A DNA stretch of 64,000 bases from Candidatus Eiseniibacteriota bacterium (GTDB lineage Bacteria; Eisenbacteria; RBG-16-71-46), in NCBI GenBank assembly GCA_963717935.1, contig CAVQXP010000002.1, positions 192,001 through 256,000 on the forward strand, read 5' to 3'. A program made the position numbers and the translations under genes. A model generated the notes under the pieces. The model did not search any database. It saw only the letters and a program-made list of their open reading frames with translations, and had not been told where the DNA came from. This document shows positions 15,373 through 45,739 of this stretch, one piece after another. The stretch's first letter is position 1; every line of letters begins with the position of its first letter.

Positions 15373-17469
15373 TTGAAGGAGTTCACCACCGCTCAGATTC
15401 GCAACGTCGCTCTCGTCTCGCACCACGGTGTCGGCAAGACGTCGTTGGCCGAGGCGATGCTGTTCAATGCGAAGGCGACCACCCGGCTCGGCCGCATCGC
15501 GGACGGGACCACGCTGCTCGACTACGCCACCGACGAGCTCCAGCGCCAGATCACGATCAACCTCAAGCTGGCGCAATTCGAGTGGCAGGGGCACAAGATC
15601 AATCTGCTCGACACCCCGGGCTACCCCGACTTCGTGGGTGATGTCTACAGCGCGCTGCGCGTGGCCGACTCCGCCATCCTTCTCGTGCGCGGGGCCAGCG
15701 GCGTCGAGGTGGGCACCGAGGTGGTCTGGGAAGTGGTGCGCCAGGAGAAGACCCCGGTCCTGGTCGCGGTCAACATGATGGACAAGGAGCACGCGGATTT
15801 CGACACGGCGGTGCTCTCGCTGCGCAAGCGCCTGGGCATCAACGCGGTGCCGGTCCAGCTCCCGATCGGCCAGGCAGAGGCCTTCCACGGCATCGTGGAC
15901 CTGATCGAGAACAAGGCCTGGGTCTTCTCCGGCAAGGGCATGGAGGAGAAGAGCGAGTCCGCACCCATCCCCGGCGACATGACGGCCAAGGTCGCCGAGG
16001 CCCGCAACCACCTGCTCGAGGAGGCCGCCACCGGCGACGAGGGGCTCATGAACAAGTTCCTCGAGACGGGCGAGCTCACCGTCGAGGAGATCCGGCGTGG
16101 CCTCACGTTGCGCGTGGTCCAGCGCGACCTCTCGCCGGTGTTCTGCTGCGGGGCCTACCACAACCAGGGCATCCGCGAACTCCTCGACGAGGTCGTGGAC
16201 CTGCTGCCCTCGCCACTCGACGTGGCGCCCGTGACGGGCAAGGCGAACGGCGCGGAGATCGTCTGCAAGCCGGACCCGGCTGAACCCGTGGCGACGATGG
16301 TGTTCAAGACCCTCTCCGAGCAGCACCTCGGCGACCTCTCCCTGGTGCGCGTCTACTCCGGGCACCTCGAAGCCGGCAAGGAGCTGGCAAACACCACGCG
16401 GAACCGCTCCGAGAAGACCGGCACGCTCTACCACCTCGTGGGCAAGGAGCGCATCGAGTGCAAGAGCGCGGTGGCCGGCGACATCGTGGCCGCGGTGAAG
16501 CTCCGCGAGACGCACACCGGCGACACGCTGGCCGACAAGGCGCGGCCGGTCCTGCTCCCGCCCCCGGACTTCCCCGCGCCGGTGACCGCGGAGTGCGTGC
16601 GGCCCAAGAGCAAGGGCGACGAGGAGAAGATGGCGCAGGGGCTCAACCGCCTGCACGAGGAGGACCCCACCTTCAGCCGGGCCTACGAGGTCAGCACCAA
16701 GGAGACGCTCGTCACCGGCATGGGGGACCTGCAGTTCGACGTCATGGTGGACCGGCTCAAGAAGCGTTTCGGCGTCGAGGTCCTGCTGCAGCGGCCGCGG
16801 GTGCCCTACCGCGAGACCGTCCGGGGCACGGCCAAGGGCGAGTACCGGCACAAGAAGCAGACGGGCGGCCGCGGCCAGTTCGGCGAGGTGCACCTGCGGG
16901 TCGAGCCCCGCAAGCGCAGCGAGGGCTTCGCATTCCTCGACGAGGTCAAGGGCGGCGTGGTGCCCAACCAGTTCATCCCGGCGGTCGAGAAGGGCGTCGT
17001 CGCCGGCATGGAGAAGGGTCCGATCGCCGGCTATCCGGTCGTGGACGTGGCGGTCGCGCTCTACTTCGGCAAGCACCACGACGTGGATTCATCGGAGATG
17101 GCGTTCAAGATCGCGGCTGAGACCTGCTTCCACCAGGTGATGATGGAGGCCAACCCGATCCTGCTCGAGCCCATCGAGGAGATCGCCGTGCGCGTGCCCG
17201 AGGAGTTCCTCGGCGACGTGATGGGCGACCTCTCCTCGCGGCGCGGCAAGATCCTGGGGACCGACGCGGACGGTTCGCACCAGATCATCCGGGCGCTGGC
17301 GCCGACCTCGGAGATCTACAAGTACGCGACCCACCTGCGCTCGCTGACGCAGGGCCGGGGCATGCACTCGGCCCGGCTCTCTCACTACGAGGAGGTGCCG
17401 CGCGAGTTGACCGAGAAGGTCGTTGCCGCGGTGCGAGCCGAGAAGGAGGCAGGGGCGAACGCCGGTTAG
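15373..17469 (+). CDS. fusA: Elongation factor G paralogue (EF-G2-like), TTG start
   Basis: IRNVALVSHHGVGKTS, LLDTPGYPDF, EEDPTF, VPYRET, KKQTGGRGQFG, HDVDSSEMAFK; not within an rpsL-rpsG operon. Confidence 0.92.
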   Translation: MKEFTTAQIRNVALVSHHGVGKTSLAEAMLFNAKATTRLGRIADGTTLLDYATDELQRQITINLKLAQFEWQGHKINLLDTPGYPDFVGDVYSALRVADSAILLVRGASGVEVGTEVVWEVVRQEKTPVLVAVNMMDKEHADFDTAVLSLRKRLGINAVPVQLPIGQAEAFHGIVDLIENKAWVFSGKGMEEKSESAPIPGDMTAKVAEARNHLLEEAATGDEGLMNKFLETGELTVEEIRRGLTLRVVQRDLSPVFCCGAYHNQGIRELLDEVVDLLPSPLDVAPVTGKANGAEIVCKPDPAEPVATMVFKTLSEQHLGDLSLVRVYSGHLEAGKELANTTRNRSEKTGTLYHLVGKERIECKSAVAGDIVAAVKLRETHTGDTLADKARPVLLPPPDFPAPVTAECVRPKSKGDEEKMAQGLNRLHEEDPTFSRAYEVSTKETLVTGMGDLQFDVMVDRLKKRFGVEVLLQRPRVPYRETVRGTAKGEYRHKKQTGGRGQFGEVHLRVEPRKRSEGFAFLDEVKGGVVPNQFIPAVEKGVVAGMEKGPIAGYPVVDVAVALYFGKHHDVDSSEMAFKIAAETCFHQVMMEANPILLEPIEEIAVRVPEEFLGDVMGDLSSRRGKILGTDADGSHQIIRALAPTSEIYKYATHLRSLTQGRGMHSARLSHYEEVPRELTEKVVAAVRAEKEAGANAG

Positions 17470-39793: not shown

Positions 39794-40043
39794 GCCCGGT
39801 TCCGCGCGGCCGGGCTTCAGCCCGGCTGCGCGCCGCCCGCCCCGGGCGGGCCGCCAGCGCCCCACTCGCATCCCATCGACTCAGGCTGTAGTCTGACGCG
39901 CGCGTGAGCCCTGCGCGGGGGACCGGTCCCGGCCGGCCCGCGTGCGACGATGCGCCCCGGCGCGACCCGCGCGGCGCCCACCCGGGAGGCGGGGCCGGGG
40001 TCCCGCGAGCACGGTCCGCACGAACCCGCACCAAGGAGCCCCT

Positions 40044-42575
40044 GTGTCGCCCAGCAGCCCCCGCACGAAGCGCCGCCCGCCCGCGAAGCCGGAGTCCGCC
40101 CCGGCCGGGGCTCCCGCGAAGAAGAAGCCCGGGCCGGGCCCGGCGCTCGTGGTCACCCGCGGGGAGGAGACCTTCCAGGTTCGCGACCGCCTGCCGCTGC
40201 TGCCGCTGCGCGACGTCGTCGTGTTCCCCTCGATGACCATCCCGCTGCTGGTGGGGCGGCTGCCTTCCATCAGCGCGCTCGAGAAGGCCGTGGCGCGTGA
40301 CCGGTTGCTGTTCGTCACGGCGCAGACGCGCAGCGAGGTGGCCGATCCGACTCACGAGGAGCTCTACCCGGTGGGCACGCTGGCGCGCGTGCTCCAGCTC
40401 TTTCGTCTGCCCGACGGCACCATGCGGGTGCTGGTCGAGGGCCTGGTCCGCTGCCGTGCCCGGCGCTTCCTCTGGTCGAACGACTACTTCACGGTGAAGC
40501 TCGCGCTCGTGCCCGAGGCTCCGCCGGCTGGCGGGCCGGAACTGGAGGCGGCCCAGCGGCACGTATTGGGGCAGTTCAACGACTACGTGCACCTGAACCG
40601 GCGCATCCCTGACGAGGTCCTCACCACCGCCAGCGCCCTGACCGACCCGATGGCCCTGAGCTACACGCTCGCGGCGCACCTGCTGGTCAAGGTCTCGCAG
40701 AAGCAGCGGCTGCTCGAGGCTGCGGGCCCGGCCGAGCGGCTGCGCCTGCTGGGCGAGATGCTGGGAGCGGAGCTGGAGATCCTCAAGCTCGAGCGCAAGA
40801 TCGAGGGGCAGGTCCGCTCGCAGGTACACCGCAATCAGAAGGAGTTCTATCTCAACGAGCAGCTCAAGGCGATCCGCAAGGAGCTCGGCCACCAGAACGA
40901 GTTCGCCAGCGAGATCGACGATCTGAGCGTGGCCATCCGCAAGGCCCGCCTGCCGCGCGAGGTGCTGGCGAAGGCGATGAAGGAGCTGGACCGCCTCTCC
41001 AAGATGAGCTTCATGTCGCCCGAGGCGACGGTGGTGCGCAACTACCTGGACTGGCTGGTGTCGCTGCCCTGGGCCAGGGCCTCCCGCGACCAGAGCGACA
41101 TGGCGAAGGTCGAGAGCATCCTCGACGAAGACCACTTCGGACTGCAGAAGGTGAAGGAGCGCATCGTCGAGTATCTGGCGGTGCTCAAGCTGACGAAGAA
41201 GAACAAGGGCCCCATCCTGTGTCTGGTGGGGCCGCCGGGGGTGGGCAAGACCTCGCTTGGCCGCTCGATCGCACGGGCGCTCTCGCGCCGTTTCGTGCGC
41301 GTCGCGCTCGGTGGCGTGCGCGACGAGGCCGAGATCCGGGGGCACCGGCGCACCTACATCGGCTCGCTGCCGGGACGCGTCATCCAGAGCATCCGCCGGG
41401 CGGGCACGCGGAACCCGGTATTCCTGCTCGACGAGATCGACAAGCTCGGCGCCGATTTCCGCGGCGACCCCGCCTCGGCGCTGCTCGAGGTGCTGGATCC
41501 CGAGCAGAACCACACCTTCAACGACCACTACCTCGAAGTGGACTTCGACCTCTCGCAGGTGATGTTCATCTGCACGGCCAACTCCCAGCACTCGATCCCG
41601 CCGGCGCTCGTGGACCGCATGGAAACCCTCCGGCTGCCGTCCTATCACGAGAGCGAGAAGGTGCAGATCGCGCGGCGCTTCCTCATTCCCAAGCAGATCA
41701 AGGCGGCCGGACTCGAGCCCGCCAACCTGCAGATCGCCGCGCCGGCGCTGGCCGCGCTCATCCGCAGCTACACGCGCGAGGCCGGTGTGCGGAATCTGGA
41801 GCGCGAGATCGCCGGGCTGTGCCGCAAGGCGGCCAGGCGCAAGGCGGCGGGCCAGCTGGAGGGGGCGATGAACGTCACGCTCTCCAACCTGCACCGCTTC
41901 CTGGGGCCGCCCAAGTACATCGACCTGGCGGTGGAGCGCGTGGACCGGGTGGGCCTCGCGAACGGCCTGGCCTGGACCGAGGCGGGGGGCGACGTGCTCA
42001 CGATCGAGGTCAGCATCCTGCCCGGCAAGGGCGAGCTGCAGCTCACCGGGAAGCTGGGCGAGGTGATGCGCGAGTCCGCGCACGCGGCGCTCACCTGGAT
42101 CCGCTCCCGCGCCGAGCGCCTGGGACTCGACAAGCACTTCCACCGCGAGGTCGACGTGCACGTGCACGTGCCCGAGGGAGCCACGCCCAAGGACGGCCCT
42201 TCCGCCGGCATCTCGATCGCCCTGGCGATGGTGAGCGCGCTCACCGGCATCCCGACGCGGCACGAGGTCGCCATGACCGGCGAGATCACGCTGCGCGGGA
42301 ACGTCATCGCCGTGGGCGGCCTCACCGAGAAATCGCTGGCCGCCCGGCGCGCCGGTCTCGAGGTGATGCTGCTGCCCCGGTCGAACGAGAAGGACATCGC
42401 GGAGATGCCCGAGGAGGTGCGGGAGGGGCTCGAGCTCGTGCTGGTCGAGAGCATGGACCAGGTCCTCGATCGGGCGCTCGAACGCAAGGTCGAGCCGCGC
42501 ACCGCCGCGCCGCCGCCGCCGGCCGCGCCCGTCGTGAAACCACAGGAGGAGGGGCCGGCGGAGTACGCGCACTGA
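40044..42575 (+). CDS. lon: Lon protease
   Basis: AAGGAG RBS plus GTG, LPLRDVVVFP, GPPGVGKTS, RGHRRTYIG, PKDGPSAG (catalytic Ser), MTGEITLRG. Confidence 0.96.
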   Translation: MSPSSPRTKRRPPAKPESAPAGAPAKKKPGPGPALVVTRGEETFQVRDRLPLLPLRDVVVFPSMTIPLLVGRLPSISALEKAVARDRLLFVTAQTRSEVADPTHEELYPVGTLARVLQLFRLPDGTMRVLVEGLVRCRARRFLWSNDYFTVKLALVPEAPPAGGPELEAAQRHVLGQFNDYVHLNRRIPDEVLTTASALTDPMALSYTLAAHLLVKVSQKQRLLEAAGPAERLRLLGEMLGAELEILKLERKIEGQVRSQVHRNQKEFYLNEQLKAIRKELGHQNEFASEIDDLSVAIRKARLPREVLAKAMKELDRLSKMSFMSPEATVVRNYLDWLVSLPWARASRDQSDMAKVESILDEDHFGLQKVKERIVEYLAVLKLTKKNKGPILCLVGPPGVGKTSLGRSIARALSRRFVRVALGGVRDEAEIRGHRRTYIGSLPGRVIQSIRRAGTRNPVFLLDEIDKLGADFRGDPASALLEVLDPEQNHTFNDHYLEVDFDLSQVMFICTANSQHSIPPALVDRMETLRLPSYHESEKVQIARRFLIPKQIKAAGLEPANLQIAAPALAALIRSYTREAGVRNLEREIAGLCRKAARRKAAGQLEGAMNVTLSNLHRFLGPPKYIDLAVERVDRVGLANGLAWTEAGGDVLTIEVSILPGKGELQLTGKLGEVMRESAHAALTWIRSRAERLGLDKHFHREVDVHVHVPEGATPKDGPSAGISIALAMVSALTGIPTRHEVAMTGEITLRGNVIAVGGLTEKSLAARRAGLEVMLLPRSNEKDIAEMPEEVREGLELVLVESMDQVLDRALERKVEPRTAAPPPPAAPVVKPQEEGPAEYAH

Positions 42576-42603
42576 GATACCGTCTGGTTCATCAAGCGGT
42601 TTT

Positions 42604-43788
42604 TCATGCCGTCGCCTCCGCAGGATGGAGGATGGGGACAAACGGCTGCCGGCGCCGGGCCACGCTGTGGACGGCGCCGAGCAGCTTGTGCATGCAGGCG
42701 ACGAGCGCGACCTTGGGCAGCTTGCCGCGAGCGCGCAGGCGTTCGTAGTAGGCCTTGAGCCACGGGTTCTTCTGCACTGCGGTCAGGGTCGGCATCCAGA
42801 GGGCCTTGCGCAGCCGGGCGTTGCCGATCGAGGAGCAGCCTGCGCGTCGCGGCTGGTGTTTGCCCGACTGTTTGAGGGCAGGCACGACACCGACGTAGGC
42901 CGCCAGCGTTGCGGGCGAGTGGAAGTCGGCCGGGTTGCCGACCTCGGCGATGATGCGGGCGGCCGTGGTCGGGCCGATGCCATCGATGGTCGTGAGCAGC
43001 GTCCCGACCTCGTGCTCTGCGAGCGTGCACTCGATGTCGCCATCGATCTCGCGCAGGCGGCGGCGCAGCAGGTCCATGTCCTCGCAGCAGTGGTGAACCT
43101 GCAGGCGGTACGGAGGGCCGTGGAAGTGCCCGACCGAGACCCGCGCGGCCTCAATCAGGACCTTCGCGAGTTCGGGGCCCACGACGTGATGCCCGTCGTA
43201 ACGCAGGCGCGCGAGCCGCCCTGGCGCGAGGCCGTGGAACGCCTCGGCCGTGGGGTACTCATGCAGGATCGTGGTTGCCAACGCGCTGTCGAGGCTGTGC
43301 ACGTGACGGGTGAACTCGGGGAACCCCAGGTCCACCAGCCGGTGCAACTGGCGGGTGCGATCGCCGAAGTCCTGTACCAGCCGGTCACGGTGGCGCACGA
43401 GCTCGCGCAGTTCGTCCGTCGCGCGGTCGGGCAGCCGCGTCGCCGCCGGGTGCTTCTGTGACGCAAAGCGGGCGATATTCAGCGCGTCGACCGCGTCGGT
43501 CTTGGTGCGCTCGAGTTCCTCCTGCGCGAACCGGCTCGTCCGCCGCGGGTTCAGCAACGCAATCGCGAAGCCCTCACCGGCGAGCATCGCAAACAGGTTC
43601 TTCCAGTAGTGCCCGGTTGCCTCCATCGCCACCAGCGTGTCGGTGCTGGCCCCCAGCAACTCGCGCATCCGCGCGTAGCCCGCGGCGTCCTCGGCACACT
43701 TCGCGGCGCTCCGCAGCACCGCGCCGGCCTCATCCACGATGGCCACCACGTGCTGCTCCGAGCCGATGTCGATCCCCACGTAACGCAT
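42604..43788 (-). CDS. IS110-family DEDD recombinase/transposase
   Basis: AGGAG RBS; YVGIDIG, MEATGHYW, KTDAVDA (DEDD RuvC fold), TIDGIG, AYVGVVP, KQSGK (catalytic Ser), GNARLR. Confidence 0.97.
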   Translation of the reverse strand: MRYVGIDIGSEQHVVAIVDEAGAVLRSAAKCAEDAAGYARMRELLGASTDTLVAMEATGHYWKNLFAMLAGEGFAIALLNPRRTSRFAQEELERTKTDAVDALNIARFASQKHPAATRLPDRATDELRELVRHRDRLVQDFGDRTRQLHRLVDLGFPEFTRHVHSLDSALATTILHEYPTAEAFHGLAPGRLARLRYDGHHVVGPELAKVLIEAARVSVGHFHGPPYRLQVHHCCEDMDLLRRRLREIDGDIECTLAEHEVGTLLTTIDGIGPTTAARIIAEVGNPADFHSPATLAAYVGVVPALKQSGKHQPRRAGCSSIGNARLRKALWMPTLTAVQKNPWLKAYYERLRARGKLPKVALVACMHKLLGAVHSVARRRQPFVPILHPAEATA

Positions 43789-43830
43789 GCCCGTACTCCT
43801 TACCGACGGGAGTCCCCGGGAGCCTCGGAG

Positions 43831-44010
43831 CCGATGGCCCTGCTCGCGCTTGTGCATGCGAGGACCAGGCCTCTCGATACCGTTCGAGCCCTGACCATCG
43901 GTCGAGGGCGCCGATCTCAGTGACGAGGACAGAGCCTCAGCCCGCGCGGCCCGGCGCCCCTCTCCCGAACCCCGTCCCCGGGAGCCTACCCCCGCCCGAG
44001 GAGCCCGTGT
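43831..44010 (-). ncRNA. Putative bridge RNA (target-binding loop 43904-43962, donor-binding loop 43831-43901); 5' end approximate
   Basis: Two stem-closed internal loops carrying segments that match the donor junction (ACGGTATC, ACAAG) and the insertion site (CACTGAG). Confidence 0.8.
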
Positions 44011-44027
44011 GGAGGTGATACAAGCGA

Positions 44028-44096
44028 CGGGCCCTCTCGGGGCAGCAGGGCGAGCAGAGGCACCGTGCGCTCGCCCTGCTGCCCCGAGAGGGCCCG
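44028..44096. repeat. 28-bp perfect inverted repeat (REP-like or terminator-like hairpin) next to the IS left end
   Basis: CGGGCCCTCTCGGGGCAGCAGGGCGAGC (44028-44055), 13-nt loop, exact reverse complement at 44069-44096. Confidence 0.9.
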
Positions 44097-44129
44097 CGGA
44101 CAGTGATGAGCGCCGGAGGCCGGTCCGTC

Positions 44130-44368
44130 ATGAAAGTCCTCGTCGCCGAGTCGCTCGACCCCGCCGGCCTCGCGCGCCTGCGCGACGCGGGGCACGAGGT
44201 CGTGGAACGCGCGGGCCTCGCGGGCCGCGCGCTCGCCGAGGCGCTGCGCGACATGCAGGCGCTGGTCGTGCGGGGCGACACGCGGGTGACCGAGGAGGCG
44301 CTGCGCGGCGCGCCGCGCTCGAAGCCGCGGCGATCGTGGTCGAGACGCTGGCGCGGCCGCGAGGCTGA
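44130..44368 (+). pseudogene. D-3-phosphoglycerate dehydrogenase relic with a large internal deletion
   Basis: MKVLVAESLDPAGL...ALVVRGDTRVTEEALRGAPR (SerA N-terminus) joined out of frame to a C-terminal-like helix ALEAAAIVVETL; directly upstream of purA. Confidence 0.7.
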
Positions 44369-44464
44369 ACGCGGTCCGGGCCGCCTGCGCGCCCACGCCG
44401 CGGTTTGTCGCCTTCACGACCGTCTGCTAGCGTGCCGCGCGGTCCGATCGCAAGGAGGCTCGGG

Positions 44465-45739
44465 ATGCCGTGCACCGTGGTCGTCGGCGCTCAGTGGGGC
44501 GACGAGGGCAAAGGCAAGATCGTCGACGCGTTGAGCGCCGCCGCCGACATCGTCGCTCGCTACCAGGGTGGCCCCAACGCCGGGCACAGCGTCGTCCGGG
44601 CGGGGCGGACCCTCGTGCTTCACCTGGTGCCCTCCGGCGTCATGCACGACGGCCGGCGCTGCCTCATCGGCAACGGCGTGGTCGTGGACCTCCAGAGCCT
44701 GCGCGAGGAGGTCGAGCGGCTCGAGGCCCTCGGCCTCGACGTGAGCCCCCGGCTCGGCGTGAGCACCGCCGCCCATCTCATCCTGCCGCAGCACCGCGCG
44801 GTCGAAGCCTTCGCCGAGGCCGGTGCCGGCGCGATCGGTACGACCGGGCGCGGCATCGGCTTCGCCTACCGCGACAAGGCCGCGCGCACCGGGCTGCGGG
44901 TCGGCGACCTGTTCGAGCCGGCCCGCTTCGTCGCCGCGGTGGACCGCAACCTGGAGCGCCTGCGCCTGGAGTTCCCCGCGGTCGGAGCGCTCGCCTCGAT
45001 GAGCGGCGCGGGGCTGCTGGCCGAGTGGCGCGAAGTCGCCGCCTGGCTCGAACCCCTGGTGTGCGACGTCTCCGCCGAGTTGCACGCCGCCCTCAAGGCC
45101 GGCAGGCATGTCCTGCTCGAGGGCGCGCAGGGCACGCTCCTCGACCTGGACCACGGCACCTATCCCTACGTGACCTCCTCGCCCGCGAGCGCGGCCGGCG
45201 CGCCGCTGGGCGTGGGGCTGGGACCCCGCGTCGTGGACCGCGTGATCGGCGTGACCAAGGCGTACACCACGCGCGTGGGGCACGGGCCGTTCCCCAGCGA
45301 GATGCCCGAGGCGGAGGCCGGGCGGTTGCGCGAGGCGGGGGAGGAGTATGGCGCGACCACCGGGCGGCCACGGCGCTGCGGCTGGCTCGACCTGCCGGCG
45401 CTGCGCTACGCGGCGCGCGTGAACGGGCTCGACGCGCTGGTGGTCACGAAGCTCGACGTGCTGGACGGCTTCGAGGAGATCCGCGTCGTCGTCGGCTACG
45501 AGCGCGACGGACGCCCGGTGGAGGGTTTCCCGGCCGGGGCGGGCGCGCTCGAGCGCTGCCGGCCGGTGTGGCGCGGTTTCCCGGGCTGGCGGGCACCCAC
45601 GACCGCGGCCCGGCGCTGGGCGGACCTGCCGGCCCGCGCCCACGAGTACCTGGAGTGGATCGAGCGCGAGAGCGGCGTGCCCATCGCCTCCGTCTCGGTC
45701 GGGCCGGAGCGCGAGGCCGAGGTCCAACGGGTGCGTTGA
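44465..45739 (+). CDS. purA: Adenylosuccinate synthetase
   Basis: GAQWGDEGKGK, GGPNAGH, IGTTGRGIG, EGAQG, GTYPYVTSS, YTTRVG, TTGRPRRCGW. Confidence 0.97.
   Translation: MPCTVVVGAQWGDEGKGKIVDALSAAADIVARYQGGPNAGHSVVRAGRTLVLHLVPSGVMHDGRRCLIGNGVVVDLQSLREEVERLEALGLDVSPRLGVSTAAHLILPQHRAVEAFAEAGAGAIGTTGRGIGFAYRDKAARTGLRVGDLFEPARFVAAVDRNLERLRLEFPAVGALASMSGAGLLAEWREVAAWLEPLVCDVSAELHAALKAGRHVLLEGAQGTLLDLDHGTYPYVTSSPASAAGAPLGVGLGPRVVDRVIGVTKAYTTRVGHGPFPSEMPEAEAGRLREAGEEYGATTGRPRRCGWLDLPALRYAARVNGLDALVVTKLDVLDGFEEIRVVVGYERDGRPVEGFPAGAGALERCRPVWRGFPGWRAPTTAARRWADLPARAHEYLEWIERESGVPIASVSVGPEREAEVQRVR

What the first reader, a model, noticed from the sequence alone, without database searches (positions are those of the whole stretch)
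42575..44024. IS110 element with a readable bridge RNA: guides for its own donor junction and for the insertion site
Seen: on the minus strand the right end is ACGGTAT-CT and the left end is CT-TGTAT, so the excised circle junction would read ACGGTATCTTGTAT. The non-coding left end holds a stem (CCGATGGTC/GGCCATCGG, 43831-43901) enclosing ACGGTATC (43876-43883), identical to the left donor half, and ACAAG (43849-43853), complementary to the right donor half, with a small hairpin between them. An adjacent stem (GAGGGGCGCCG/CGGCGCCCTC, 43904-43962) encloses CACTGAG (43916-43922), the exact complement of the right target half CT-CAGTG at the lon end. Established: IS110 recombinases such as IS621 (donor ACAGTATCTTGTAT, CT core) use a bridge RNA with target- and donor-binding loops, and this recombinase keeps DEDD plus the SG serine. 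Inference: this is an intact programmable RNA-guided recombinase from an uncultured high-GC lineage, with a donor one base different from IS621's.
Basis: partly seen in the sequence, partly recalled or inferred. Interest (0 to 1): 0.9.

Follow-up and report, generated by a model that had tools for sequence, protein, structure and literature searches.

The report
IS110 insertion sequence with bridge RNA
This is an apparently intact IS110-family jumping gene that carries its own guide ("bridge") RNA, an already known kind of RNA-guided recombinase, sitting exactly on the stop codon of the lon protease gene.

Summary
Window 42575-44024 (minus strand) is a 1,450-bp IS110-group element. It has a 394-aa DEDD/Ser recombinase, CT at both junctions, a 29-nt right end and a 234-nt left end.

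A covariance model built from 68 related loci, without the window, finds the left end at 136.7 bits, E 7e-30. Its six helices show compensatory changes in 21 of 38 pairs.

Across relatives the guides change together with the DNA they should pair with:
- The right target guide equals the right flank exactly in 33 of 47 loci.
- The left donor guide follows the right-end sequence in 53 of 62 loci.
- The split right donor guide follows the left-end sequence in 58 of 59 loci.

The window's donor guides, right target guide and both handshake dinucleotides fit. Its left target guide does not fit the left flank (2 of 7), so only half of the insertion site is "read".

Durrant et al. 2024 already hold a member of this clade in their supplementary alignment, so this is a new member of a known kind.

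Side finding: this clade sits on TGA stop codons and ATGA/GTGA gene junctions far more often than chance. Activity is untested.

The parts
42575..44024 (-). Whole IS110-group element, counted with the CT core copy at each junction (1,450 bp)
   Evidence: Ends read. The same end motifs sit at the same distances from the recombinase gene in related loci.
42604..43788 (-). Recombinase gene, 394 aa, ATG 43788-43786, stop TGA 42606-42604. Catalytic D7, E56, D98, D101 and S308.
   Evidence: Pfam DEDD_Tnp_IS110 4.9e-38 and Transposase_20 3.3e-27. PDB phmmer: ISCro4 transposase 1.1e-32, IS621 transposase 7.3e-31, with aligned catalytic residues. These residues are invariant in 21 relatives.
43796..43801 (-). 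AAGGAG ribosome-binding site, 7 nt before the ATG
   Evidence: Read.
42575..42603 (-). Right end (29 nt): left donor half ACGGTAT (42583-42577), core CT (42576-42575), candidate -35 TTGATG (42595-42590)
   Evidence: TTGnnn sits at this fixed position in 56 of 63 loci.
44015..44022 (-). Start of the left end: right donor half TGTAT (44022-44018) and candidate -10 TATCAC (44020-44015), 17 nt from the -35 once the ends are joined
43814..44008 (-). Predicted bridge RNA. The 5' limit is a guess from the -10 box; the 3' limit is the end of the model match.
   Evidence: Covariance model match 43814-43973, 136.7 bits. A 5' stem-loop at 43975-44002 is seen in the fold.
43904..43962 (-). Target-binding loop: outer stem; left target guide GCGCGGGCT 43947-43939; inner hairpin 43939-43924; right target guide CACTGAG 43922-43916; handshake AT 43915-43914
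43831..43901 (-). Donor-binding loop: outer stem; left donor guide ACGGTATC 43883-43876; inner hairpin 43873-43860; split right donor guide AT 43857-43856 / bulge GC / ACAAG 43853-43849; handshake CG 43848-43847
43817..43967 (-). Closing helix CGGGAG (43967-43962) with CTCCCG (43822-43817) that encloses both loops
   Evidence: Helix 1: 82% of cells paired, 3 of 6 pairs with changes on both sides.
42570..42574 (-). Right target half CAGTG. With the core it is the reverse complement of CAC-TGA-G, the last codon and stop of lon.
   Evidence: The lon ORF 39942-42575(+) has Lon_C 1.7e-84, LON_substr_bdg and AAA domains.
44025..44031 (-). Left target half CCCGTCG, not matched by the left target guide
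   Evidence: 2 of 7.
44028..44096 (.). Perfect hairpin in the left flank (28-bp arms, 13-nt loop) whose arm overlaps the left target half by 4 nt. It is host DNA, not part of the element.
   Evidence: pair I2. Unique in the window. DNA fold -24.8 kcal/mol against -15.1 for control windows.

Best explanation
Window 42575-44024 is one complete copy of an IS110-group insertion sequence on the minus strand.

What the sequence shows:
- The element encodes a DEDD (RuvC-like) plus serine recombinase.
- Upstream of that gene, its left end encodes a bridge RNA of about 190 nt: a 5' stem-loop, a target-binding loop and a donor-binding loop, all closed by an outer helix.
- In the donor loop, ACGGUAUC copies the last bases of the right end.
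- AU..ACAAG, with a 2-nt bulge, is complementary to CTTGTAT at the start of the left end. This is the same split layout as the IS621 right donor guide.
- In the target loop, CACUGAG is complementary to CT+CAGTG of the right flank.
- The dinucleotides just 3' of the two right guides (AU and CG) are complementary to positions 6-7 of the donor (AT) and of the target (CG), as handshake guides should be.

Inferred by analogy with IS621 (not shown here):
- Excision joins the right end to the left end.
- That join puts TTGATG and TATCAC 17 nt apart to form a sigma-70-type promoter for the RNA.
- A recombinase tetramer holds the RNA, pairs the donor junction and a target, cuts next to the CT cores through a phosphoserine intermediate, and exchanges strands.

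This copy sits with its core on the last base of the lon stop codon and the base after it, antisense to lon, so lon keeps its TGA.

The left target guide does not match the present left flank. Most likely either the copy arrived by a right-half-only ('half-match') event next to a strong hairpin, or the guide or the flank changed afterwards.
For: Protein:
- Both IS110 Pfam domains are present.
- It matches the solved IS621 and ISCro4 recombinases, with all five catalytic residues aligned.
- The ORF is uninterrupted and the same length as its 394-aa relatives.

RNA:
- The model built without the window scores 136.7 bits, E 7.4e-30, over its full length.
- On 68 loci, 94.8% of cells are paired, against 39-50% when partners are slid.
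- 21 of 38 pairs, in 163 cells, change on both sides.
- 0 of 500 shuffles reach any of the five measures.

Guides, tested across relatives at 56-71% protein identity:
- Right target guide equals the right flank over CT+5 in 33 of 47 non-redundant loci.
- At the three variable positions, 2.60 matches against 0.96 in 5,000 permutations (maximum 1.43).
- Left target guide: 4.06 of 7 matches against 2.51 (maximum 3.13).
- Left donor guide is identical to the right-end 8-mer in 53 of 62 loci.
- All 13 loci whose end has A, C or G at position 5 carry the same base in the guide.
- The split right donor guide predicts left-end positions 10-14 in 58 of 59 loci. All 18 loci with AA or AC instead of AT are among them.
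- The first handshake base of the donor loop pairs with target position 7 in 46 (+6 wobble) of 55 loci.

Promoter halves: TTGnnn lies at a fixed 17-nt spacing from TAnnnn across the junction in 56 of 63 loci.

Layout: it agrees with the published IS621 description, namely a 9-nt left target guide, an 8-nt left donor guide, a split right donor guide with two flipped-out bases, and handshake guides just 3' of the right guides (passages).
Against: - No expression, circle or transposition data exist.
- There is only one copy in 64 kb.
- The left target guide shares only 2 of 7 non-core bases with the left flank.
- No site in the window fits the predicted full target better than 2 mismatches: 32 near-matches against 36.5 expected.
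- Rfam 15 holds no family that matches, so the RNA family assignment rests on my own model.
- No sigma-70-like promoter is found in the integrated copy, so the RNA may be silent here.
- End positions in relatives were located with simple motifs (TGTA[ATC]; GGnAnnCT). That builds some circularity into the donor comparisons.
- Related loci are not phylogenetically independent.
Confidence: 0.92

Rival explanations
1. The element is what it looks like, but this copy is a stranded, no longer mobile insertion. Either its target loop has drifted or the DNA to its left has been rearranged, and that is why the left guide and the left flank disagree.
For: - Left target guide 2 of 7.
- Single copy in the window.
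- The neighbouring ORF 44130-44534 keeps only the first 61 residues of a 2-hydroxyacid dehydrogenase domain and runs into purA. The region left of the element has therefore been reshaped at some time.
- G+C and GC3 of the element resemble the host, as expected for a long-resident copy.
Against: - The ORF, all five catalytic residues, both loops, both donor guides, the right target guide, both handshake dinucleotides and both promoter halves are intact.
- The dehydrogenase remnant is truncated at its far end, not at the side facing the element.
- 11 of 48 related loci have equally poor left matches (2 or fewer of 7), so a poor left match is common in this clade and need not mean decay.
Confidence: 0.25
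2. The element boundary is misplaced: the left end really extends through the 28-bp hairpin (to about 44100), so the 'left flank' used here is element DNA.
For: - The hairpin lies 3 nt from the CT and is unusually perfect.
- In some subgroups (Myxococcaceae loci L011-L016, L027, L039) sequence similarity continues beyond the expected boundary.
Against: - In 53 loci the similarity stops at CT|TGTA and the flanks are unrelated.
- The split right donor guide predicts exactly CTTGTAT at this boundary.
- The -10 box lies here at the family's fixed spacing.
- The hairpin arm occurs nowhere else in the window.
- No related locus carries this hairpin.
Confidence: 0.04
3. The left end is only a structured leader and a protein-recognised end. 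The matches between loop segments and DNA are conservation of the ends, not RNA guides.
For: - The donor segments are highly conserved (48 of 63 right ends are ACGGTATCT).
- Identity alone therefore cannot distinguish pairing from shared ancestry.
- There are no RNA data.
Against: - Where the ends do differ, the loop segments differ in the same way: 13 of 13 for the left donor half and 18 of 18 for the right donor half.
- The right target guide tracks 26 different flank triplets that are host DNA and unrelated by descent.
- The homologous IS621 RNA has been shown to guide recombination.
Confidence: 0.03

Closest known systems
IS621 of Escherichia coli (Durrant et al. 2024, PMC11208160; Hiraizumi et al. 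2024, PMC11208158; passages read)
   Same: - Same recombinase fold families and the same five catalytic residues.
- Long left end and short right end, with a CT core.
- RNA made of a 5' stem-loop, a target loop and a donor loop.
- 9-nt left target guide and 8-nt left donor guide.
- Right donor guide split by two unpaired bases.
- Handshake guides directly 3' of the right guides.
- -35 in the right end and -10 in the left end.
- The 14-bp donor is identical at 13 of 14 positions.
   Different: - The proteins are distant: E 7e-31, and only two blocks align.
- The window's protein is 394 aa against a 328-residue solved chain.
- Its aligned blocks are about 65 residues further apart than in IS621.
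- The natural right target guide is 7 nt (CT+5) here, against 4 nt in IS621.
- The target is NTGAG at gene ends rather than the REP sequence ATCAGGCCTAC.
- An outer helix closes both loops. I did not check whether IS621 has one.
ISCro4 recombinase (PDB 9t56)
   Same: It is the best solved-structure match by sequence, E 1.1e-32, with the same two aligned blocks.
   Different: It is similarly distant. I read nothing about its RNA or target.
The clade member already present in Supplementary file 4 of Durrant et al. 2024
   Same: It carries the clade's GGGAGAGGGTCGCCG stem, a ..CACTGAGAT right guide, an AACGGTATC left donor guide, a CATGCACAAG right donor guide and an ACGGTATCT|TGTAT junction (2 occurrences of the stem motif; junctions of the GACGGTATCTTGTATC type occur 133 times).
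   Different: It is a different element with other guides. The paper does not discuss this clade by name in the passages I read, and the stored file is cut.
ISPpu10 of Pseudomonas putida (bioRxiv 10.64898/2026.03.19.712850; abstract and one section read)
   Same: Its target has a stem-loop on the 5' side that overlaps the left target half and adds specificity. The window's left target half is overlapped by a strong hairpin.
   Different: The ISPpu10 stem is about 5 bp and lies within a REP; the window's is 28 bp and unique. Across this clade, left flanks are only slightly more structured than controls: -13.8 against -11.4 kcal/mol over 50 flanks.
IS900/IS901/IS902-type IS110 members of actinobacteria
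   Same: They are IS110-family elements whose target is a translation signal and that insert in one orientation relative to the gene. The RBS/ATG target is recalled from memory. The 'hed' ORF lacking its own RBS and start codon is in a passage of PMC8141618.
   Different: As recalled, those insert between the RBS and the start codon. This clade puts its core on the A of TGA and the following G. I made no sequence comparison.

Membership tests
IS110 family, IS110 group (bridge recombinase systems) | N-terminal RuvC-like DEDD domain with the four acidic residues | tested here: met
   PF01548 4.9e-38. D7, E56, D98 and D101 align with IS621 D11, E60, D102 and D105. They are invariant in 21 relatives.
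IS110 family, IS110 group (bridge recombinase systems) | C-terminal Tnp domain with the catalytic serine | tested here: met
   PF02371 3.3e-27. S308-G309 aligns with IS621 S241-G.
IS110 family, IS110 group (bridge recombinase systems) | Long non-coding left end upstream of the gene and a short right end (IS1111 has the reverse) | tested here: met
   The left end is 234 nt between the core and the ATG. The right end is 29 nt including the core.
IS110 family, IS110 group (bridge recombinase systems) | The same core dinucleotide (CT) at both junctions | tested here: met
   CT at 44024-44023 and at 42576-42575. This is shared by most relatives.
IS110 family, IS110 group (bridge recombinase systems) | Left-end RNA with a 5' stem-loop and two stem-loops that each hold an internal loop, supported by covariation | tested here: met
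IS110 family, IS110 group (bridge recombinase systems) | Donor loop: the left guide copies the right-end terminus and the right guide is complementary to the left-end terminus | tested here: met
   Window: 8 of 8 for the left guide and 7 of 7 for the right guide with its 2-nt bulge. Family: 53 of 62 and 58 of 59, with matching changes.
IS110 family, IS110 group (bridge recombinase systems) | Target loop: the right guide is complementary to the right flank | tested here: met
   Window: 7 of 7. Family: 33 of 47 exact, and permutations never come near this.
IS110 family, IS110 group (bridge recombinase systems) | Target loop: the left guide copies the left flank | tested here: not met
   Window: 2 of 7 non-core positions. 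The family as a whole meets it (4.06 against 2.51), but 11 of 48 loci do no better than the window. This concerns this copy's site, not the architecture.
IS110 family, IS110 group (bridge recombinase systems) | Handshake guides 3' of the right guides that pair with positions 6-7 of the other DNA | tested here: met
   Window: AT with donor AT, and CG with target CG. Family: 46+6 of 55 for the first donor-loop position.
IS110 family, IS110 group (bridge recombinase systems) | A promoter rebuilt across the joined ends | tested here: inconclusive
   TTGATG, a 17-nt spacer and TATCAC, each 4 of 6 to consensus. TTGnnn sits at the same position in 56 of 63 loci. This is motif-level only; no transcription data.
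IS110 family, IS110 group (bridge recombinase systems) | Circular intermediate, RNA binding by the recombinase, and RNA-programmed recombination | not testable with these tools
   These need bench work.
IS1111 group (seekRNA downstream of the gene, long subterminal inverted repeats) | Guide RNA in a long right end | tested here: not met
   The right end is only 29 nt, and the RNA model match lies in the left end.

The most novel reading that the evidence does not exclude
This clade of IS110 elements has a hard-wired UGAG in its right target guide. That aims it, always antisense, at TGA stop codons and at ATGA/GTGA stop-start overlaps of operon genes. Only the last sense codon and the downstream bases are left 'programmable'. 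Gene ends would then be its natural safe harbour, since the upstream gene keeps its stop, as lon does here.

Two bolder additions:
- In the sub-clade that hits (A/G)TGAG, the left end carries on its antisense strand an ATG or GTG exactly six codons inside the boundary. It is in frame with the displaced downstream gene and could act as a replacement start codon.
- Right-half-only insertions like the window's (11 of 48 loci) would be natural examples of the 'half-match' recombination so far described for IS621 in vitro.
Probability: 0.4. Interest if true: 0.55.

Novelty: new member of a known kind. Interest (0 to 1): 0.3.

Why it matters
As a single element it adds little. IS110 bridge RNAs have been known since 2024, thousands of orthologues have been mined, and this clade is already in a published alignment.

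Its modest value:
- It is a clean, fully annotated example from a candidate phylum with no cultured members.
- Its donor differs at one base from that of IS621 although the proteins are distant.
- It has a naturally long (7-nt) right target guide. An extended right guide is reported to improve efficiency and lower half-match events in IS621.

The family-level by-product may matter more. A natural preference for stop codons and gene junctions, together with frequent left-half mismatches, bears on how these elements avoid harming their hosts and on what really sets their specificity.

Tried and rejected
- Rfam 15 scan of 42300-44300 at E up to 10 gave 20 sub-threshold matches. All but two lie on the flank hairpin; 19 are microRNA families and one is a Burkholderia sRNA. 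No bridge RNA family was found.
- Minimum-free-energy folding of the whole left end was not informative: z -0.42.
- A search for a second junction-like site in the window found 0 matches at up to 2 mismatches.
- A search for the target predicted from both guides found 32 sites at up to 3 mismatches against 36.5 expected, none with fewer than 2 mismatches.
- The second hit of my RNA model (17167-17315, 24.9 bits) lies in the EFG_C region of an EF-G gene and is rejected as spurious.
- RNAalifold paired the 3' arm of the target-loop stem with the region after the donor loop. I preferred the IS621-like full target-loop stem because 3 of its 9 pairs show changes on both sides, 6 cells in all (columns 17/69, 19/68, 21/66). 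Most of both alternatives is invariant.
- I asked whether the 7-mer CCCGTCG at 43810-43804, identical to the left target half, is an alternative left guide. Across 52 loci the tail region matches left flanks only marginally better than shuffled pairs (5.83 against 5.65, maximum 5.92), and the window is the only locus with 8 of 9. I treat it as chance.
- ISAzs32, which Durrant et al. illustrate, is not this clade. The RuvC alignment string for its protein cluster in their Supplementary Table 1 is unlike the window's N-terminus.
- A tblastn search of plasmids gave at best 61.5% identity (a Sandaracinus plasmid), annotated only 'IS110 family transposase'. No ISfinder name was obtained.
- The left ends of the Myxococcaceae subgroup (L011-L016, L027, L039) and of the L032-type subgroup could not be placed. 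They were left out of all left-flank counts.
- Searches for prior descriptions of stop-codon or gene-junction targeting by IS110 elements found nothing relevant in listings and passages.

Full report
**1. The observation**

I read 42400-44200 on the minus strand. Every string and coordinate in the finding is right.
- The right end finishes ACGGTAT-CT (42583-42575) and is followed by CAGTG.
- The left junction reads CT-TGTAT (44024-44018).
- The gene between them runs from ATG 43788 to the stop at 42604 (394 aa) and is preceded by AAGGAG.

**2. The protein**

- Pfam gives DEDD_Tnp_IS110 (4.9e-38) and Transposase_20 (3.3e-27).
- Against solved structures the best sequence matches are the ISCro4 (1.1e-32) and IS621 (7.3e-31) recombinases.
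- In the printed IS621 alignment, D7, E56, D98, D101 and S308 fall on the residues that the structure paper names as catalytic: D11, E60, D102, D105 and S241 (passages). The solved chain is offset by two residues.
- The same residues are invariant in an alignment of 21 relatives.
- The relationship to IS621 is distant. Only two blocks align, and they lie about 65 residues further apart in the window's protein.
- Homologues are abundant. 3,993 of the 8,000 scored candidates reach E 1e-3. The best is 93% identical, and most sit on contigs of 1.2-8 kb.

**3. The RNA, tested without the window**

No Rfam 15 family matches. Thermodynamic folding says little in 70% G+C DNA. I therefore used relatives.
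- One scan of the genome collection returned 80 loci at 56-71% protein identity, from many phyla.
- Their right ends share gCTTGAC-N9-ACGGTATCT.
- Their left ends start CT|TGTAT.
- The region before the gene has a strikingly conserved two-loop layout.

Of 72 non-identical RNA segments I aligned 68. L023, L024, L035 and L045 were left out because my segment limits for them were about 30 nt too long.

On that alignment a six-helix structure was scored. The six helices are an outer closing helix, then for each of the target loop and the donor loop an outer stem and inner hairpin, plus a second stem in the donor loop.
- 94.8% of cells are paired, against 39-50% when partners are slid by 1-3 columns.
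- 21 of 38 pairs, in 163 cells, change on both sides.
- None of 500 shuffles reaches any of the five measures.

A covariance model of this alignment (166 positions) finds the window at 43814-43973(-) with 136.7 bits, E 7.4e-30, over the full model. The runner-up scores 24.9 bits and lies in an EF-G gene.

**4. Do the loop segments behave as guides?**

I took the guide positions from the family layout and the published IS621 scheme, and the flanks from the loci. Of the 81 sources, four gave no usable RNA region (L028, L030, L043, L080).

*Right target guide*
- 55 loci have a located right end and at least 8 nt of flank; 47 are non-redundant.
- The guide equals CT+5 of the flank exactly in 33 of 47.
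- Per-position agreement for positions 8-15 is 1.0, 1.0, 0.96, 0.98, 0.94, 0.89, 0.77 and 0.34.
- At positions 12-14, where 26 different triplets occur, the mean is 2.60 matches. Permutations give 0.96 (sd 0.12, maximum 1.43 of 5,000).

*Left target guide*
- 53 loci have a TGTA anchor; 48 are non-redundant. The Myxococcaceae and L032-type subgroups were excluded because their boundary could not be placed.
- The mean is 4.06 of 7 matches against 2.51 (sd 0.17, maximum 3.13).
- Agreement is strongest next to the core.

*Donor side*
- The left donor guide equals the right-end 8-mer in 53 of 62 loci.
- The 13 loci whose end has C, A or G at position 5 all carry the same base in the guide.
- The right donor guide is split as in IS621: two bases, a 2-nt bulge, then ACAAG.
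- It predicts left-end positions 10-14 in 58 of 59 loci.
- Its first dinucleotide is TT or GT in all 18 loci whose left end reads TGTAA or TGTAC.
- The base after ACAAG pairs with target position 7 in 46 (+6 wobble) of 55 loci, as a handshake guide should.

The hexamer at the fixed -35 position is TTGnnn in 56 of 63 loci, 17 nt from TAnnnn of the left end once the ends are joined.

**5. The window's own copy**

These segments fit:
- the left donor guide, 8 of 8;
- the right donor guide, AT/gc/ACAAG against CTTGTAT;
- the right target guide, 7 of 7;
- the target-loop handshake AT against donor AT;
- the donor-loop handshake CG against target CG.

The left target guide does not fit. GCGCGGGCT against CCCGTCG-CT agrees at 2 of 7 non-core positions, below the shuffled mean.
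- The window is not alone in this. 11 of 48 loci score 2 or fewer.
- No site in the window fits the full predicted target.
- The left flank is a perfect hairpin with 28-bp arms that overlaps the left target half by 4 nt.

Two recent preprints give possible contexts. One-sided 'half-match' substrates suffice for IS621 recombination in vitro (abstract and one section). For ISPpu10, a stem-loop overlapping the left target half is an extra specificity determinant (abstract and one section).

I cannot tell from one window whether this copy came by a right-half-only event or whether guide or flank changed later. To the left lie a remnant of a 2-hydroxyacid dehydrogenase gene (only its first 61 residues match the domain) and then purA, so the region has a history of change.

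**6. Where it sits**

- The ORF 39942-42575(+) is a full Lon protease.
- Its stop TGA (42573-42575) shares its A with the core, so lon is untouched.
- The element is antisense to lon.
- The window is 69.8% G+C and the element 69.2%.
- purA's named closest relatives, and the best-named recombinase relative, are Candidatus Eisenbacteria/Eiseniibacteriota MAGs.

**7. A family-level pattern seen in passing**

The right guide is nnnUGAG in nearly all loci, so the target reads NTGAG on the other strand.

I examined 31 sites (30 loci and the window) that have at least 310 nt on each side.
- The TGA closes an ORF of at least 100 codons with GC3 of at least 0.75 in 16 of 31.
- In 9 of those 16, an overlapping ATG or GTG also opens such an ORF in the other flank, in the other frame.
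- Of all other TGAG in the same DNA, 67 of 802 and 12 of 802 do so. Fisher p is 2e-9 and 9e-9.

Pfam then scored the flank ORFs.
- It finds real domains in 11 of 23 'upstream' ORFs (plus one below its cut-off). Examples that run to their ends are GMP synthase C-terminal, asparagine synthase, TauE, thiolase C and CoxS-like 2Fe-2S.
- It finds domains in 13 of 20 'downstream' ORFs. Ten of these start within their first 30 residues, including ABC-2 permease after an ABC ATPase, an ABC ATPase after a permease, PIN, NUDIX and DUF1634 after TauE.

The left end adds a further pattern.
- In loci with CTCAT or CTCAC targets it carries CAT or CAC at +16..18, in 38 of 41 loci. Among CTCAG-target loci such as the window it does so in 1 of 9 (Fisher p 3e-6).
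- On the other strand this is an ATG or GTG six codons inside the boundary, in frame with the displaced gene.
- The association is confounded by phylogeny, and the gene calls are crude.
- My searches found no description of this.
- Targeting of translation signals by other IS110 members (IS900 type) is recalled from memory, not checked.

**8. Novelty**

Durrant et al. report bridge RNAs predicted in 85.7% of IS110-group elements (passage). Their supplementary alignment holds 133 junctions of the GACGGTATCTTGTATC type and two rows with this clade's own target-loop stem and guide layout (the stored file is cut).

The finding is therefore a correct annotation of a new member of a known kind. What is not shown here is expression, circle formation and recombination.

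Noticed in passing
window 42570-42576; loci L008, L019, L023, L029, L038, L046, L048, L053, L063, L069, L071 and others at their right junctions: The clade's target reads NTGAG on the strand opposite to the recombinase gene. In 16 of 31 sites the TGA is the stop of a long high-GC3 ORF. In 9 of those an overlapping ATG or GTG also starts the next gene. For other TGAG in the same DNA the figures are 67 of 802 and 12 of 802. Pfam confirms many of these genes. In the window the gene is lon.
   Followed up: partly
left ends of loci with CTCAT/CTCAC targets, e.g. L019, L022, L023, L038 (+16..18 from the boundary); absent in window 44007-44005: The conserved left-end motif CCACTCA[TC] gives, on the antisense strand, an ATG or GTG exactly 18 nt inside the boundary and in frame with the displaced downstream gene. 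It is present in 38 of 41 loci against 1 of 9 loci with CTCAG targets. It could be a replacement start codon, or just the transcription start region of the RNA. The association is confounded by phylogeny.
   Followed up: partly
window 44028-44096: A perfect hairpin (28-bp arms, 13-nt loop) lies 3 nt from the element's left core, between the lon stop and the next ORF, with no T-run after it. It is unique in the window. It draws spurious microRNA hits from Rfam.
   Followed up: partly
window 44130-44534: This ORF of 134 aa matches the 2-hydroxyacid dehydrogenase catalytic domain only over its first 61 residues. It overlaps the start of purA (about 44465-45739). It looks like a truncated gene remnant.
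   Followed up: no
window 43804-43810: CCCGTCG, identical to the 7-nt left target half, occurs in the left end just before the ribosome-binding site (8 of 9 with the core). Relatives show almost no such tendency: 5.83 against 5.65 in shuffles, and the window is the only locus at 8 or more. Probably chance.
   Followed up: yes
loci L005, L009, L056, L022 (both flanks): In several Burkholderiales and Gammaproteobacteria MAGs the element sits between units of a repeated sequence of about 60 nt (CTCATTGGAYTACC, a hairpin, then TTCGCCCTTGGGGCGGCCC). The target there spans a junction inside a REP-like array.
   Followed up: no
loci L011-L016, L027, L039 (Myxococcaceae/Archangiaceae): This subgroup has the donor ACGGAATCT with the matching left donor guide. 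Its left boundary could not be placed: about 60 nt upstream of the expected end is still conserved between genomes.
   Followed up: no
locus L062, right junction: The right end ACGGTATCT is followed directly by TGCAAAG rather than CA.., and the right guide does not match the flank. This could be an abutting second element or a rearrangement.
   Followed up: no
window 17167-17315 (+): A weak match to my bridge RNA model (24.9 bits, rough E 3e-4) lies inside the C-terminal domain of an EF-G gene (15373-17469). It is a false positive of a G+C-rich model.
   Followed up: yes
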